This document shows, one piece after another, positions 26,012 through 49,552 of a stretch of DNA of 64,000 nucleotides. Within the stretch, counting starts at the first letter, position 1, and every line of letters starts with the position of its first letter. The notes under the pieces are model-generated. The model was given only the letters and a program-made list of their open reading frames with translations. It was not told where the DNA came from and searched no databases. Source of the DNA: Bacteroidota bacterium (GTDB taxonomy: Bacteria > Bacteroidota > Bacteroidia > Chitinophagales > BACL12); NCBI GenBank assembly GCA_029571985.1, contig JAKQVC010000194.1:9139-73138 (forward strand), in the 5' to 3' direction. Both the position numbers and the translations under genes were made by a program.

Positions 26012-26884
26012 ATGAGCGTTTTAGTAGGAAAACATACCCGTTTGGTGGTGCAGGGCTTTACAGGCAAAGAAGGCACCTTTCATGCAGAACAGATGATTGC
26101 CTATGGCACGAATGTGATTGGTGGGGTTACACCTGATAAGGGTGGTACCACACATCTCGACAGGCCGGTTTTCAATACCGTAGAAGATGCGGTTAAAAAA
26201 GAAGGCGCCAATACATCCATCATATTTGTACCGCCGGCATTTGCCGCTGACGCCATTATGGAATCTGCTGATGCAGGTATTTCAGTGATTGTGGCTATTA
26301 CCGAGGGTATTCCGGTTCAGGATATGATTCGGGTAAAATCGTACATCGCCGACCGCAACTGCACGCTCATCGGACCAAACTGTCCGGGTATTATTACACC
26401 AGAAGAAGCAAAAGTGGGCATCATGCCCGGCTTTATACATAAAAAAGGCACTATTGGTATCGTTTCACGCTCCGGAACCTTAACGTACGAAGCGGTTGAT
26501 CAGGTAACCAAGGCCGGTTTAGGTCAGAGCACCTGTATCGGTATCGGTGGCGACCCAGTTCCAGGAACAACCACACTGGATGCCGTTAAATTATTAATGG
26601 CCGACCCTGAAACCGAAGGCATTATCCTGATTGGTGAAATTGGTGGCACTATGGAAGCCAATGCAGCTAACTGGATTAAAGAATTTGGCACTAAACCCGT
26701 AGTTGGATTTATTGCCGGTCAAACAGCACCAAAAGGCCGCACCATGGGCCATGCAGGCGCCATCGTAGGTGGAAAAGACGATACCGCCGCCGCCAAAATG
26801 GAAATCATGCGCAATTGCGGCATCACCGTAGTAGAAAGCCCCGCCTATTTAGGAGAAACGATGTTGAAAGCGTTGAGGGGATGA
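26012..26884 (+). CDS. sucD: Succinyl-CoA synthetase alpha subunit
   Basis: MSVLV...[22 protein letters not shown], phospho-His motif MGHAGAI. Start at ATG 26012. Confidence 0.98.
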
Positions 26885-26887
26885 TTT

Positions 26888-27012
26888 GGTGAGTGGTGAG
26901 TAGTGAGTGGTGAGTGGTGAGAGCCTGCTATGAAGTGAAGCTTTTTGGAGCGCAGCGGCGAAAAGATTCTACTTCATAGGTGAGTAGTGAGTGGTGGAAG
27001 TGGAATGAGGAA
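26888..27012 (+). repeat. G-rich heptamer array (GGTGAGT/AGTGAGT) interrupted by a GCCTG-tagged hairpin element
   Basis: Heptamers at 26888-26921 and again from about 26979. Element GCCTG-CTATGAAGT-GAA...TTC-T-ACTTCATAG at 26923-26979. Confidence 0.85.
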
Positions 27013-27076: not shown

Positions 27077-27132
27077 CCCACTACCTGATACCTGATACTT
27101 GATACCTGATACCCACTACCTGATACTTGATA
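27077..27132 (+). repeat. C-rich heptamer array, 8 units (CCTGATA/CTTGATA/CCCACTA)
   Basis: Eight contiguous 7-mers ending 10 nt before the fabG ATG. Confidence 0.9.
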
Positions 27133-27142
27133 CCCAAAAAAT

Positions 27143-48475: not shown

Positions 48476-48506
48476 AAGCCGGGATTGTGCGATCCCGGCT
48501 TTTTTT
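48476..48506 (+). terminator. Rho-independent terminator
   Basis: AAGCCGGGATTG-tg-CGATCCCGGCTT followed by a T run. Confidence 0.88.
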
Positions 48507-48528: not shown

Positions 48529-48590
48529 TGCATTTCAGGCCTGCCCTGAAGTGAAAACTACGCAGTGGAGTGGAGTAGTTTTCTACTTCA
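48529..48590 (+). repeat. Solo copy of the GGCCTG-tagged bulged hairpin element
   Basis: TGCATTTCA-GGCCTG-CCCTGAAGT-GAAAACTAC-gcagtggagtgga-GTAGTTTTC-T-ACTTCA, matching 49249-49310 and 49462-49523 except in the loop. Confidence 0.95.
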
Positions 48591-48675
48591 ACCTATTAAT
48601 TCTATTGTGAGATACTCCGAAATCTGAAAAAGAATTCAACCCAAGGTTACCCAACATTTCAACGATGATTAAAAA

Positions 48676-48999
48676 TTAAACAGAGTCTTCTATCCAAGTA
48701 ACGGCTGTATTTTTATACACCGGTAACTTTAACTTAGCCAATGTGTTCGAAAGCATTATTCGAATGGCTTTTTTGCCGGCAGTTGTTTTTAAATACTTCT
48801 CTCGTCTTACTGCATCATCCTTAAAATAATAATACTCTATAAAGATGAGTTTTAAAGGCAGTCTTGATGATGTGCTGATGCATAACCCACTATTATGTTC
48901 ATGCATTCGCTTTACGATATCACTAGTGAATCCAGTGTATAACATATTATCCGTCTTACTAAATAATATATAGACACAATAGTCAAGTCCAGTTTGCAT
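48676..48999 (-). CDS. Stand-alone GIY-YIG nuclease (YhbQ/UPF0213-like size)
   Basis: YCVYILFS...LYTGFTSDIVKRMHEHNSG...T..R.P.KL...E...AVRREKYLKT..GK. ATG 48999 preferred (ORF track starts at 49026). Confidence 0.92.
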   Translation of the reverse strand: MQTGLDYCVYILFSKTDNMLYTGFTSDIVKRMHEHNSGLCISTSSRLPLKLIFIEYYYFKDDAVRREKYLKTTAGKKAIRIMLSNTLAKLKLPVYKNTAVTWIEDSV

Positions 49000-49164
49000 C
49001 GGCTTCTGATTGACACAAAAATCCACACTTATTCTGGCACCGCTATATTTTTTTAATAGCAGTTACCGACATAGGGGTGGCGCAGATAACTTTTACATGG
49101 AAAGTAGCTCTGAAAATTGAGTAACCGCTTAACAATAAAGCAGCGATTCACGCTTATCCACAAG

Positions 49165-49526
49165 CCCTGAAGCAGATCTCCTGCGTCGATCGCTTCAGGG
49201 CAGGCCCTATATCTCGTATATTGCTTTGACCAAAGGTCAAAGTATCATTGCATTTCAGGCCTGCCCTGAAGTGAAAACTACGCAGCAAAGCGGAGTAGTT
49301 TTCTACTTCAAGGCTTTTCTTGTAATGCAAAACATAATCTAATTAAATGTCAATGTTTTAATTCCACAACCAGCTCTCCCTGAAGCAGATCTCCTGCGTC
49401 GATCGCTTCAGGGCAGGCCCAATATCTCGTACATTGCTTTGACCAAAGGTCAAAGTATCATTGCATTTCAGGCCTGCCCTGAAGTGAAAACTACGCAGCA
49501 AAGCGGAGTAGTTTTCTACTTCAGGG
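49165..49526. repeat. Two direct copies of a 146-bp composite palindromic (REPIN-like) element
   Basis: 49165-49310 and 49378-49523 differ at 2 positions. Each consists of an inverted tagged hairpin, a central hairpin CTTTGACC-aaa-GGTCAAAG, and a forward tagged hairpin. Confidence 0.96.
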
Positions 49527-49552
49527 GTATTGAGTAATTTTGGGCTATCTTA

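What the first reader, a model, noticed from the sequence alone, without database searches (positions are those of the whole stretch)
48529..49526. Stand-alone GIY-YIG nuclease surrounded by tagged palindromes: candidate REP/RAYT-like system using a different nuclease
Seen: between the PKD-gene terminator and the icmF promoter lies a 1-kb cassette containing only a 107-aa GIY-YIG gene and five copies of one hairpin architecture: GGCCTG tag, CCCTGAAGY, inner stem, CGCAG-containing loop, inner stem, bulged T, RCTTCA(GGG). Forward copies start at 48538, 49258 and 49471 (inner stem GAAAACTAC/GTAGTTTTC). Reverse copies lie at 49165-49206 and 49378-49419 (inner stem GATC/GATC, with a compensatory AAGC/GCTT change). 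A sixth copy is at 26923. Known: REP sequences are tagged hairpins that flank, and are cut by, RAYT HUH transposases; GIY-YIG domains act as homing or structure-specific endonucleases (I-TevI, Slx1). Inference: this is an analogous system in which a minimal GIY-YIG nuclease recognises and propagates its flanking hairpins. I know of no characterised example, but cannot exclude prior description.
Basis: partly seen in the sequence, partly recalled or inferred. Interest (0 to 1): 0.85.

Follow-up and report, generated by a model that had tools for sequence, protein, structure and literature searches.

The report
GIY-YIG nuclease cassette with bulged hairpins
A tiny nuclease gene travels together with two characteristic DNA hairpins across many Bacteroidota genomes, usually parked right behind a tRNA gene, and in this genome one of the hairpins has multiplied to about eighty copies, which suggests a so far undescribed kind of selfish DNA element.

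Summary
Five tagged hairpins and a 107-aa GIY-YIG gene fill the 1.1-kb gap between the PKD gene and icmF. Two of the five copies come from a 213-bp tandem duplication.

First, the long hairpin belongs to a genome-wide REP-like family: 78 nhmmer hits in this 4.0-Mb assembly. The genome's two RAYT-like genes are flanked by different repeats.

Second, the gene-plus-hairpin unit is conserved across Bacteroidota. In 80 homologous loci, 88 of 103 hairpin hits lie within 250 nt upstream of the gene. 61 of the 80 genes sit 81-464 nt behind a co-oriented tRNA or tmRNA gene. 49 of 62 such tRNAs have the hairpin core within 14 nt of their 3' end, against 0 of 35 tRNAs in this genome.

All these hairpins share one core, AAGYAGA paired with TCRCTT, which leaves a bulged A. 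Starting from hairpins alone in 150 other genomes, both palindromic hits had the gene about 90-100 nt downstream.

The protein is a minimal Slx1-like nuclease. The linkage is solid. That the nuclease cuts or spreads the hairpins is inferred, not shown. My searches found no description of this unit.

The parts
48676..48999 (-). GIY-YIG nuclease gene, 107 aa from the ATG at 48999. An upstream in-frame GTG at 49026 would give 116 aa.
   Evidence: Pfam PF01541 at E 5.6e-15. P0002 is 98% identical and 107 aa. Y30, G32, R40, H44, E64, R75, E76 and others are invariant among 26 homologues. The fold is closest to 1zg2 and Slx1.
48538..48591 (+). Long hairpin L1 with GGCCTG tag, downstream of the gene. 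In gene sense it has the same orientation as the long hairpins that follow tRNAs in other genomes.
   Evidence: z -3.58; 38.0 bits.
49165..49206 (-). Short hairpin S1 with GGCCTG tag and loop GACGCAGGA, 138 nt upstream of the 116-aa start. In this genome the short type was found only at this locus.
   Evidence: z -4.12; only 2 of 60 hairpins are the 32-nt type, and both are here.
49224..49242 (.). 19-nt palindrome CTTTGACC-AAA-GGTCAAAG inside the 51-nt spacer between the S1 and L2 tags. It is repeated in the second unit at about 49437-49455.
   Evidence: Read. A similar palindrome follows a tagged hairpin in G006 (L112). Function unknown.
49258..49312 (+). Long hairpin L2 with tag.
   Evidence: z -4.12; 42.1 bits.
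49378..49419 (-). Short hairpin S2 with tag, a duplicate of S1.
   Evidence: (z -3.06).
49471..49526 (+). Long hairpin L3 with tag, a duplicate of L2 and the best paired of the three.
   Evidence: z -5.89; 43.3 bits.
49165..49531 (.). Tandem duplication of the S-spacer-L unit: 154 nt twice, 97% identical, 213-nt period.
   Evidence: family D1.
26922..26977 (+). Dispersed member of the same family (tag AGCCTG, outer stem CTATG/CATAG), lying inside a (GGTGAGT)n microsatellite. It is absent from the orthologous site of the close relative G006.
   Evidence: z -5.21; 60.6 bits.
48477..48506 (+). Intrinsic terminator of the PKD / type IX secretion gene. This is the left border of the region that differs from relatives.
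   Evidence: Sequence. The same terminator is conserved in G011, after which similarity stops.

Best explanation
This is a copy of a compact selfish cassette that is widespread but patchy in Bacteroidota.

The cassette has three parts. The first is a long hairpin (L). The second is a short hairpin (S) in the opposite orientation. The third is a minimal Slx1-like GIY-YIG nuclease gene. Both hairpins are built on one conserved stem core, AAGYAGA paired with TCRCTT, which leaves a bulged A. Outer and inner stems vary and co-vary.

The cassette normally begins directly after the 3' end of a tRNA or tmRNA gene and ends a few bases after the nuclease stop codon. In this genome it lies between the PKD gene and icmF, not next to a tRNA. 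Its S-L unit has been duplicated in tandem. The tagged L hairpin has spawned a REP-like family of about 80 extragenic copies.

Proposed mechanism (inferred): the nuclease, which has no separate DNA-binding domain, recognises the bulged hairpin when it is extruded from single-stranded or supercoiled DNA and nicks at or near it. Host repair and replication then copy the hairpin, or the whole cassette, into new sites. Candidate sites are CCA-like ends, loops of other hairpins and GGTGAGT repeats. The same process would produce the tandem arrays.

Shown: the linkage, the cassette limits, the patchy distribution, gene-less hairpin spread, and the protein type. Inferred: binding, cleavage and the copying route.
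For: 1. Linkage from gene to hairpin. In 80 homologous loci from public genomes, a strict hairpin scanner gave 103 hits. 88 lay within 250 nt upstream of the gene (45 in S orientation, 43 in L orientation), 1 lay downstream, and 56 of 80 loci had at least one. The same scanner gave 86 hits in this genome and 0 on the reversed sequence.

2. Linkage from hairpin to gene. In 150 genomes sampled evenly from the class, a hairpin pattern hit 12 besides this one. I followed 5 of those 12. The 2 palindromic hits (G063, G190) each have a clade gene about 90-100 nt downstream. The 3 non-palindromic hits have none.

3. Congeners. The few true hairpins found lie next to the orthologue in G002, G003, G004, G007, G008, G014 and G015.

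4. The hairpins are not general tRNA terminators. 49 of 62 tRNAs or tmRNAs directly upstream of the gene have AGYAGA within 14 nt of their 3' end. The figure is 0 of 35 for this genome's tRNAs and 0 of 2 for other tRNAs in the same loci.

5. Mobility.
- At least 13 tRNA species plus tmRNA serve as neighbours.
- Orthologues in one genus sit at different loci.
- Two copies in one assembly are 91% identical, from the base after CCA to 13 nt past the stop.
- 8 of 16 congeners keep PKD next to icmF with spacers of 118-422 nt, against 1097 nt here.

6. Hairpin-only spread.
- 78 profile hits were found.
- Of 64 near-full-length copies, 55 sequences are distinct, so identical copies exist at separate loci.
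- The copy at 26922-26977 is missing from the G006 orthologous site.
- By my reading, hairpins are nested in the loops of other hairpins in several loci.

7. Structure is conserved through change. Outer stem pairs are CG 28 / UA 22 and CG 30 / AU 19. The core pair is UA 47 / CG 6, among 55 distinct copies.

8. Protein. PDB sequence hits are only the UPF0213 proteins 1zg2 and 1ywl. The fold search ranks 1zg2 first and then Slx1-Slx4 entries.

9. No rival enzyme. The two Y1_Tnp genes carry other REP families.
Against: - No biochemical or expression evidence exists for any nuclease-hairpin contact.
- Most genomes with the gene have only 1-6 hairpin pattern hits, close to control. Only G000 (55 hits against 3 in the control) and G044 (41 against 7) show expansion. 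The gene is therefore not sufficient for spread.
- L+S modules without the gene occur behind tRNAs in G010, G002 and G004. G009 and G010 carry hairpins but no clade gene.
- The amplified family differs from the local copies in its inner stem, and the local copies score low against the family profile.
- GIY-YIG enzymes hydrolyse DNA and cannot rejoin it, so any mobility must lean on host functions that I cannot name.
- Shared inheritance of gene and hairpins would also arise if the hairpins were only expression or termination signals of the cassette.
Confidence: 0.5

Rival explanations
1. A free-standing homing-endonuclease-type cassette aimed at tRNA gene DNA, working like phage SegB. The nuclease cuts cassette-free tRNA loci and the break is repaired from a cassette-bearing copy. 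L is the tRNA terminator. S is an expression or insulation signal. The dispersed family in this genome is spread by something else.
For: - 61 of 80 homologues lie behind a co-oriented tRNA or tmRNA.
- Cassette tails often carry a T-loop-like GTTCGA motif or a tRNA 3' fragment. One duplicated copy carries a tRNA 3' half.
- Distant paralogues in this genome sit in a tRNA array between tRNA 3' halves.
- In passages of PMC13096335, SegB is a GIY-YIG endonuclease often found near phage tRNA genes. It cuts within tRNA genes at RAWTSGAAC and drives tandem amplification. Tandem duplication is also seen here.
- The inner part of L often looks like an intrinsic terminator with a T run.
Against: - The protein is 85-115 aa with no DNA-binding domain. 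Its match to the intron/homing endonuclease model TIGR01453 is 14.5 bits against a cut-off of 56. Its fold is Slx1-like rather than I-TevI-like (I-TevI ranks 14th, E 0.41).
- The window copy has no tRNA anywhere in 64 kb.
- This reading does not explain why S carries the same bulged core as L.
- It also does not explain hairpin nesting or gene-less hairpin families.
Confidence: 0.25
2. A host-serving or harm-limiting RNA function. The tRNA, hairpins and nuclease mRNA are co-transcribed, and the nuclease cleaves the bulged hairpin RNA to free the tRNA 3' end or to control its own mRNA.
For: - The gene is co-oriented with, and a median of 181 nt behind, the tRNA.
- The L outer stem pairs with the tRNA 3' end itself.
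- Passages of PMC1564403 note a fusion of a prokaryotic Slx1-like domain to a TrmH-type tRNA methyltransferase and suggest an RNA role.
Against: - No RNA data exist. The one RNA run laid did not cover the cassette, which is no evidence either way.
- No Rfam family matches the hairpins.
- The window copy and about 80 dispersed hairpins are not next to tRNAs.
- The patchy distribution argues against a housekeeping role.
Confidence: 0.12
3. Coincidence. An ordinary REP family, spread by a RAYT or unknown factor, happens to pile up beside an unrelated small nuclease gene.
For: The family is genome-wide and extragenic like REPs. The genome does encode two Y1_Tnp proteins.
Against: - Both Y1_Tnp genes are flanked by other repeat families.
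- The hairpin-gene linkage recurs across orders of Bacteroidota and was predicted correctly from hairpins alone.
- The short hairpin type was found only at the gene.
Confidence: 0.03

Closest known systems
REP / RAYT systems (REPtrons) of Proteobacteria
   Same: A usually single-copy nuclease gene lies beside imperfect palindromes that carry an unpaired tag and a bulge. In some genomes tens of extragenic copies of the same palindromes occur, often in arrays.
   Different: The enzyme is a hydrolytic Slx1-like GIY-YIG, not a HUH Y1 transposase. The tag is GCCTG, not GTAG (GTAG is recalled, not tested). The hairpins usually sit on one side, upstream of the gene. The home site is a tRNA 3' end. 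Most carriers show no amplification.
SegB and other free-standing GIY-YIG homing endonucleases of T-even phages
   Same: A GIY-YIG gene lies next to tRNA genes, shows presence/absence between relatives, and is linked to tandem amplification (PMC13096335, passages).
   Different: By recall, SegB-type enzymes are about twice as long and have DNA-binding domains of the I-TevI lineage. This protein is the bare catalytic domain of the Slx1 lineage. It is chromosomal in Bacteroidota and comes with conserved bulged hairpins.
Slx1 (with Slx4) and bacterial UPF0213 proteins (PDB 1zg2, 1ywl)
   Same: Closest in sequence and fold. Slx1 cuts branched and stem-loop DNA by structure. That is the activity proposed here.
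   Different: Eukaryotic Slx1 has a RING domain and needs Slx4. The bacterial UPF0213 proteins have no assigned function. My searches found no reported link to repeats or tRNA genes.
IS200/IS605 elements
   Same: Subterminal imperfect hairpins with an extrahelical base, and insertion directly 3' of a short target without an obvious target duplication (IS200/IS605 properties recalled).
   Different: There is no TnpA. The cassette is only about 0.6 kb. The hairpins cluster at one end.

Membership tests
GIY-YIG superfamily, Slx1-like minimal (UPF0213) branch | GIY-YIG catalytic domain detectable by profile | tested here: met
   PF01541 at E 5.6e-15, 55.9 bits against a cut-off of 22.6.
GIY-YIG superfamily, Slx1-like minimal (UPF0213) branch | Conserved Tyr, Tyr, Arg and Glu of the active site | tested here: met
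   Y30, R40, H44, E64, R75 and E76 are invariant, and Y19 is at least 90% conserved, in 26 homologues. Which residue plays which catalytic role rests on recalled I-TevI/Slx1 knowledge.
GIY-YIG superfamily, Slx1-like minimal (UPF0213) branch | No auxiliary domain; closest to UPF0213 and Slx1 rather than I-TevI or UvrC | tested here: met
   107 aa. PDB sequence hits are only 1zg2 and 1ywl. Foldseek ranks 1zg2 first, Slx1 at 2-11, and I-TevI at 14 with E 0.41. Model pLDDT is 79.
GIY-YIG superfamily, Slx1-like minimal (UPF0213) branch | Nuclease activity | not testable with these tools
   Needs purified protein.
REP / RAYT system | Associated gene is a HUH Y1 transposase (PF01797) | tested here: not met
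   The gene is GIY-YIG. The genome's two PF01797 genes (C181, C35) are flanked by different repeats.
REP / RAYT system | Gene flanked by the same palindromes that are dispersed in the genome | tested here: met
   L copies lie on both sides of the gene in the window. There are 78 family members genome-wide sharing the tag, core and loop motif.
REP / RAYT system | Enzyme cleaves and rejoins the palindromes | not testable with these tools
   Biochemistry is needed. A GIY-YIG enzyme would not form the covalent intermediate (recalled).
Free-standing GIY-YIG homing endonuclease (Seg / I-TevI type) | Catalytic domain joined to a sequence-specific DNA-binding region | tested here: not met
   107 aa, a single domain. 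TIGR01453 scores 14.5 bits against a cut-off of 56.
Free-standing GIY-YIG homing endonuclease (Seg / I-TevI type) | Presence/absence at a fixed site between close relatives | tested here: met
   Absent from the PKD-icmF spacer in 8 of 8 syntenic congeners. The gene sits behind different tRNAs in different species.
Free-standing GIY-YIG homing endonuclease (Seg / I-TevI type) | Cuts the cassette-free allele | not testable with these tools
   Needs an assay.
MITE | Terminal inverted repeats with a target-site duplication, derived from a DDE transposon | tested here: inconclusive
   The unit is a single 56-58-nt hairpin with a one-sided tag. At the one empty site compared, a possible GTGAG duplication cannot be told apart from the surrounding microsatellite. 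I did not look for a parent DDE element.
Described RNA families (Rfam 15) | Match to a curated covariance model | tested here: not met
   In the window, only chance-level hits below the gathering scores. In 20 homologous loci, only tRNA and tmRNA.

The most novel reading that the evidence does not exclude
A new class of prokaryotic mobile element. Its only protein is a bare Slx1-like GIY-YIG nuclease that recognises a bulged DNA hairpin by shape. It homes to the 3' ends of tRNA and tmRNA genes, and it can launch REP-like bursts of its own hairpin. This would be a hydrolytic-nuclease counterpart of the HUH-based REP/RAYT and IS200/IS605 systems, and it would give the bacterial UPF0213 / Slx1-like proteins their first function.
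Probability: 0.35. Interest if true: 0.9.

Novelty: new variant of a known kind. Interest (0 to 1): 0.78.

Why it matters
Bacterial Slx1-like (UPF0213) proteins are common and have solved structures, but no function is assigned to them. A conserved cis-partner, a bulged hairpin with a defined core, gives a direct and cheap assay for them.

If the nuclease drives hairpin spread, REP-like repeats can arise without a HUH transposase. That would change how such repeats are read in genomes that lack RAYTs. It would also add a new minimal mobile element that targets tRNA 3' ends.

The hairpin core and its placement also offer an annotation rule for the stretches between tRNAs and small GIY-YIG genes in Bacteroidota.

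Tried and rejected
- Rfam. The window region gave only chance-level hits. 20 homologous loci gave only tRNA and tmRNA. The hairpins belong to no described RNA family.

- PHROGs, PADLOC and NCBIfam. There were no hits in PHROGs or PADLOC. NCBIfam gave only a sub-threshold hit. None of these libraries offers a phage or defence label.

- Alternative pairing of L arms with S arms. I considered one large structure in which the 5' arm of L pairs with the 3' arm of S. I rejected it by eye: in loci such as L049 and L054, L and S differ at the core Y/R position and in their outer stems.

- Hairpins as ordinary tRNA terminators. Rejected. None of this genome's 35 tRNAs has the core after it, and none of the 38 hairpin loci lies within 400 nt of a tRNA.

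- Exact cassette borders in the window. Not obtainable. The whole spacer between the PKD terminator and the icmF start is unlike that of G011 or G006.

- Degenerate pattern AAGYAGAN{8,38}TCRCTT in five genomes. Too noisy in four of them, with counts near the control. Only G044 stood out.

- Public reads. DNA contigs from three runs of three studies (activated sludge, anaerobic digester and sludge metagenomes) carry the cassette with no differences listed in the pieces shown apart from one inserted T behind 49491 and a single mismatch in 49284-49407, and show no joints. This gives no evidence of excision or of empty alleles. The one RNA run laid has contigs over the PKD and icmF parts only. Lack of cover over the cassette is no finding.

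- Co-variation of hairpin loop type with protein subclade. Not computed. Cassette inheritance as a unit predicts it under every hypothesis, so it would not discriminate.

- Complex prediction. Not used, because the report claims no protein-protein contact.

- The search of earlier findings.

- Literature. No paper holds GIY-YIG together with 'repetitive extragenic palindromic' or with YhbQ. Searches returned nothing describing this unit; I saw only their listings. I read passages of PMC1564403 and PMC13096335. Supplementary files were not opened. SegB site lists in the supplements of PMC13096335 might bear on the T-loop-motif comparison.
Full report
**The observation**

The stretch between the terminator of a PKD-repeat, type IX secretion-sorted protein and the start of a fused isobutyryl-CoA mutase gene (icmF) is 1097 bases long. 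These genes were identified by Pfam hits PKD, Por_Secre_tail, MM_CoA_mutase, MeaB and B12-binding.

The stretch holds one ORF on the minus strand, 48676-49026. It matches the GIY-YIG catalytic domain at E 5.6e-15. A near-identical protein on record starts at the internal ATG and is 107 aa.

The 14-base tag-plus-stem motif occurs five times. 0.19 are expected by chance, and none of 100 shuffles reached five. All copies fold into hairpins with a bulged T, with energies 3 to 6 standard deviations below shuffles.

One correction to the finding: 49165-49318 and 49378-49531 are a 97% identical tandem duplication with a 213-base period. The locus therefore holds a long hairpin downstream of the gene and a short-plus-long unit upstream that has been duplicated once.

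**The hairpin is a genome-wide family**

The window lies on contig C132 of a 4.01-Mb, 282-contig assembly with 42% G+C.

- The tag motif with at most one mismatch occurs 40 times. The reversed control gives 0.
- A profile built from 48 seed copies finds 78 copies on 29 contigs.
- A strict structural scanner gives 86 hits against 0 on reversed sequence.
- 60 of the 86 hits are single hairpins of 70 nt or less. I attribute the other 26 to pairings between neighbouring copies in arrays.
- The hits fall in 38 loci. By the nearest ORFs of 100 aa or more, they lie between ORFs, often as head-to-tail arrays.
- 51 of the 60 carry the GCCTG tag.
- 25 and 26 of the 60 have GTGAG heptad-repeat sequence within 30 nt on the 5' and 3' side. 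Background is 1.3% of random windows.
- The outer stem changes by compensating pairs: CG 28 / UA 22 and CG 30 / AU 19 among 55 distinct copies.
- The short hairpin type was found only twice, both times at the GIY-YIG locus.
- The three long local copies share tag, core and loop motif with the family. They have a different inner stem and score 38-43 bits, where most members score 50-66.

**It is not a RAYT family**

The genome has two PF01797 (Y1_Tnp) genes. Each is flanked by its own, different palindromic repeats.

**The gene and the hairpins go together far beyond this genome**

Among 40 relatives, nine have a close homologue: 47-60% identity, E at most 2e-21. Reading their flanks showed short hairpins of the same build a few tens of bases upstream of most of these genes, in the same orientation relative to the gene. 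A long hairpin and a tRNA or tmRNA gene usually lay beyond them.

A scan of one genome per species found 181 relatives. The best 80 loci were kept. By their record titles they include Chitinophagales, Cytophagales-type, Flavobacteriales and Sphingobacteriales-type assemblies.

All these hairpins share one core: AAGYAGA on one arm pairs with TCRCTT on the other, leaving a bulged A. Outer and inner stems are free to vary.

In the 80 loci the scanner found 103 hairpin hits:
- 88 within 250 nt upstream of the gene (45 in the short-hairpin orientation, 43 in the long-hairpin orientation);
- 1 downstream;
- 56 of 80 loci with at least one upstream.

61 of the 80 genes lie 81-464 nt (median 181) behind a co-oriented tRNA or tmRNA. 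At least 13 tRNA species are used. In 49 of 62 such RNA genes the core starts within 14 nt of the 3' end. The outer stem of the long hairpin often pairs with the last bases of the tRNA itself.

Controls: none of this genome's 35 tRNAs has the core behind it, and neither do 2 other tRNAs in the loci.

**A test in the other direction**

A hairpin-only pattern was run on 150 genomes sampled evenly from the class. It hit 12 of them besides this genome. I followed five of the 12:
- the two whose hit is a true palindrome (G063, G190);
- three non-palindromic hits.

Both palindromic hits have a clade gene starting about 90-100 nt downstream of the hairpin. The three others have none. I did not examine the remaining seven hits beyond reading their sequences, which do not look palindromic.

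In five further genomes the clade gene was present once in four and as a tandem pair in G042. Each also had 2-9 more distant small GIY-YIG paralogues.

**Limits and mobility of the unit**

- Two copies in one assembly (L040, L064) sit behind different tRNAs. They are 91% identical from the base after CCA to 13 nt past the stop codon, and unrelated outside that span.
- Another intragenomic pair (L027, L041) also carries the 3' half of a tRNA.
- L032 has the start of a second cassette about 30 nt after the first.
- Cassette tails often contain a T-loop-like GTTCGA motif.
- In syntenic relatives (L045, L056, L086), similarity runs 1.5 kb upstream but stops within 2-8 nt of the stop codon.
- In the window's genus, PKD and icmF are neighbours in 8 of 16 congeners. 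Their spacers are 118-422 nt, too short for the cassette. Their clade genes, where present, lie on other contigs.
- The dispersed copy at 26922-26977 interrupts a (GGTGAGT)n repeat that is uninterrupted in G006.

**What limits the claim**

- A pattern for the long hairpin gives 55 hits here (control 3) but only 0-10 in each of 40 relatives (controls 0-6), including those with the gene.
- Only one other genome examined (G044) shows an expansion: 41 against 7.
- L+S modules without a gene sit behind tRNAs in G010, G002 and G004.
- The gene is therefore linked to the hairpins but is neither sufficient for their spread nor always retained.

**The protein**

The only solved relatives by sequence are the UPF0213 proteins 1zg2 and 1ywl.

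An AlphaFold model from 11 sequences has mean pLDDT 79 and is disordered after about residue 94. Foldseek ranks 1zg2 first and then a series of Slx1-Slx4 structures, including complexes with flap and branched DNA. I-TevI ranks 14th at E 0.41.

Tyr, Arg, His and Glu positions are invariant in 26 homologues.

Passages of the 2006 superfamily survey describe prokaryotic Slx1-like proteins as the minimal form. They lack auxiliary domains and the C-terminal Asn and have only predicted roles. One fusion hints at RNA metabolism (PMC1564403).

**Interpretation**

The best-supported reading is a compact selfish cassette made of hairpin L, hairpin S and the nuclease gene. It lodges at tRNA or tmRNA 3' ends. 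In this genome it has moved to a non-tRNA spacer, duplicated its S-L unit, and seeded a REP-like family.

I infer that the nuclease recognises the bulged hairpin by shape and nicks it, and that host repair does the copying. Four things make this plausible:
- the protein is Slx1-like and has no DNA-binding domain;
- both hairpins carry one conserved asymmetric core;
- hairpins sit inside the loops of other hairpins;
- no other candidate enzyme is linked to the family.

None of these is a direct test.

The main rival is a SegB-like homing cassette that cuts tRNA-gene DNA, with the hairpins serving only as terminator and expression signals. In passages of PMC13096335, SegB is a GIY-YIG enzyme frequently found beside phage tRNA genes. 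It cuts at a motif whose complement reads like the tRNA T-loop and drives tandem amplification.

A third reading is cleavage of the hairpins as RNA in a tRNA-cassette co-transcript.

Chance co-location is all but excluded.

**Novelty**

Full-text searches found no paper combining GIY-YIG with repetitive extragenic palindromes or with YhbQ. Searches on Bacteroidetes, tRNA and hairpins, on mobile palindromic elements near tRNA genes, on UPF0213, and on 'downstream of tRNA' returned nothing describing this unit (listings only). The library omits most subscription journals, and I opened no supplements, so prior description cannot be excluded.

I rate this a new variant of known kinds (REP-like repeats and free-standing GIY-YIG cassettes). 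There is a substantial chance that it is a new class of element.

**Other data**

DNA contigs from three public runs of three studies (activated sludge, anaerobic digester and sludge metagenomes) contain the cassette with no differences listed apart from one inserted T behind 49491 and a single mismatch in the pieces shown, and with no joints.

Noticed in passing
G000:C181:47000-48500 (L001) and G000:C35:4000-4800 (L002), outside the window: Two Y1_Tnp (RAYT-like) genes. One is flanked on both sides by arrays of GTGTCGCCCC...GGGGC palindromes. The other has CGCGCTCACGCGGGTC-type repeats on one side. These are two classical-looking REP/RAYT pairs in a Bacteroidota genome.
   Followed up: partly
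G000:C50:184400-185700 and 189800-190200, outside the window: Three distant small GIY-YIG paralogues (about 33% identity) sit in a tRNA array. Each follows a terminator and is followed by a tRNA 3' half. The T-loop of that half is interrupted by a 28-nt hairpin (CCCGCCTGCTC-GACGCAGGA-GGGCAGGG). This hairpin shares the loop GACGCAGGA and the GCCTGC tag with the window's short hairpin.
   Followed up: partly
window 26874-26921 and 26978-26995: (GGTGAGT)n heptad microsatellite flanking the dispersed hairpin. Similar repeats give dozens of hits in relatives G006, G011 and G016, which lack the hairpin expansion. They may be a preferred landing site.
   Followed up: partly
window 27082-27134: A second simple repeat (ACCTGATAC-like units) just upstream of the next gene. 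It also gives many hits in G016, G001 and G011.
   Followed up: no
L114, L115, L116 (G006, G011, G016), about 60-170 nt upstream of icmF: In the closest relatives the PKD-icmF spacer holds a different conserved repeat-like block (GCACCTGATTGCAGCGGAAAGCCCGGA...GGACTTG.AGCGGAAAGCAGG). Similar sequence turns up beside hairpins in L011, L103 and L111. It is probably another dispersed repeat family of this genus.
   Followed up: no
L112 (G006:C85:12893-13028): A single tagged long hairpin is followed by a spacer with a palindrome (GTCTGACC...GGTCAGAC), much like the window's 49224-49242 palindrome. It lies at a contig end, so whether a GIY-YIG gene follows is unknown.
   Followed up: no
L011 (G011:C247:13276-13566 and the 250 nt after it): The G011 homologue has an in-frame TGA. 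It is followed, not preceded, by two tagged hairpins of the window's family in inverted orientation. It is only 51% identical to the window's protein, although IcmF is 90% identical between the two genomes.
   Followed up: partly
G044 (genome of L083), e.g. C2:353580-353801 and C24:230611, 880503: A second, unrelated Bacteroidia assembly has several small families of core-bearing hairpins, some in arrays with a 98-nt period, and one clade gene.
   Followed up: partly
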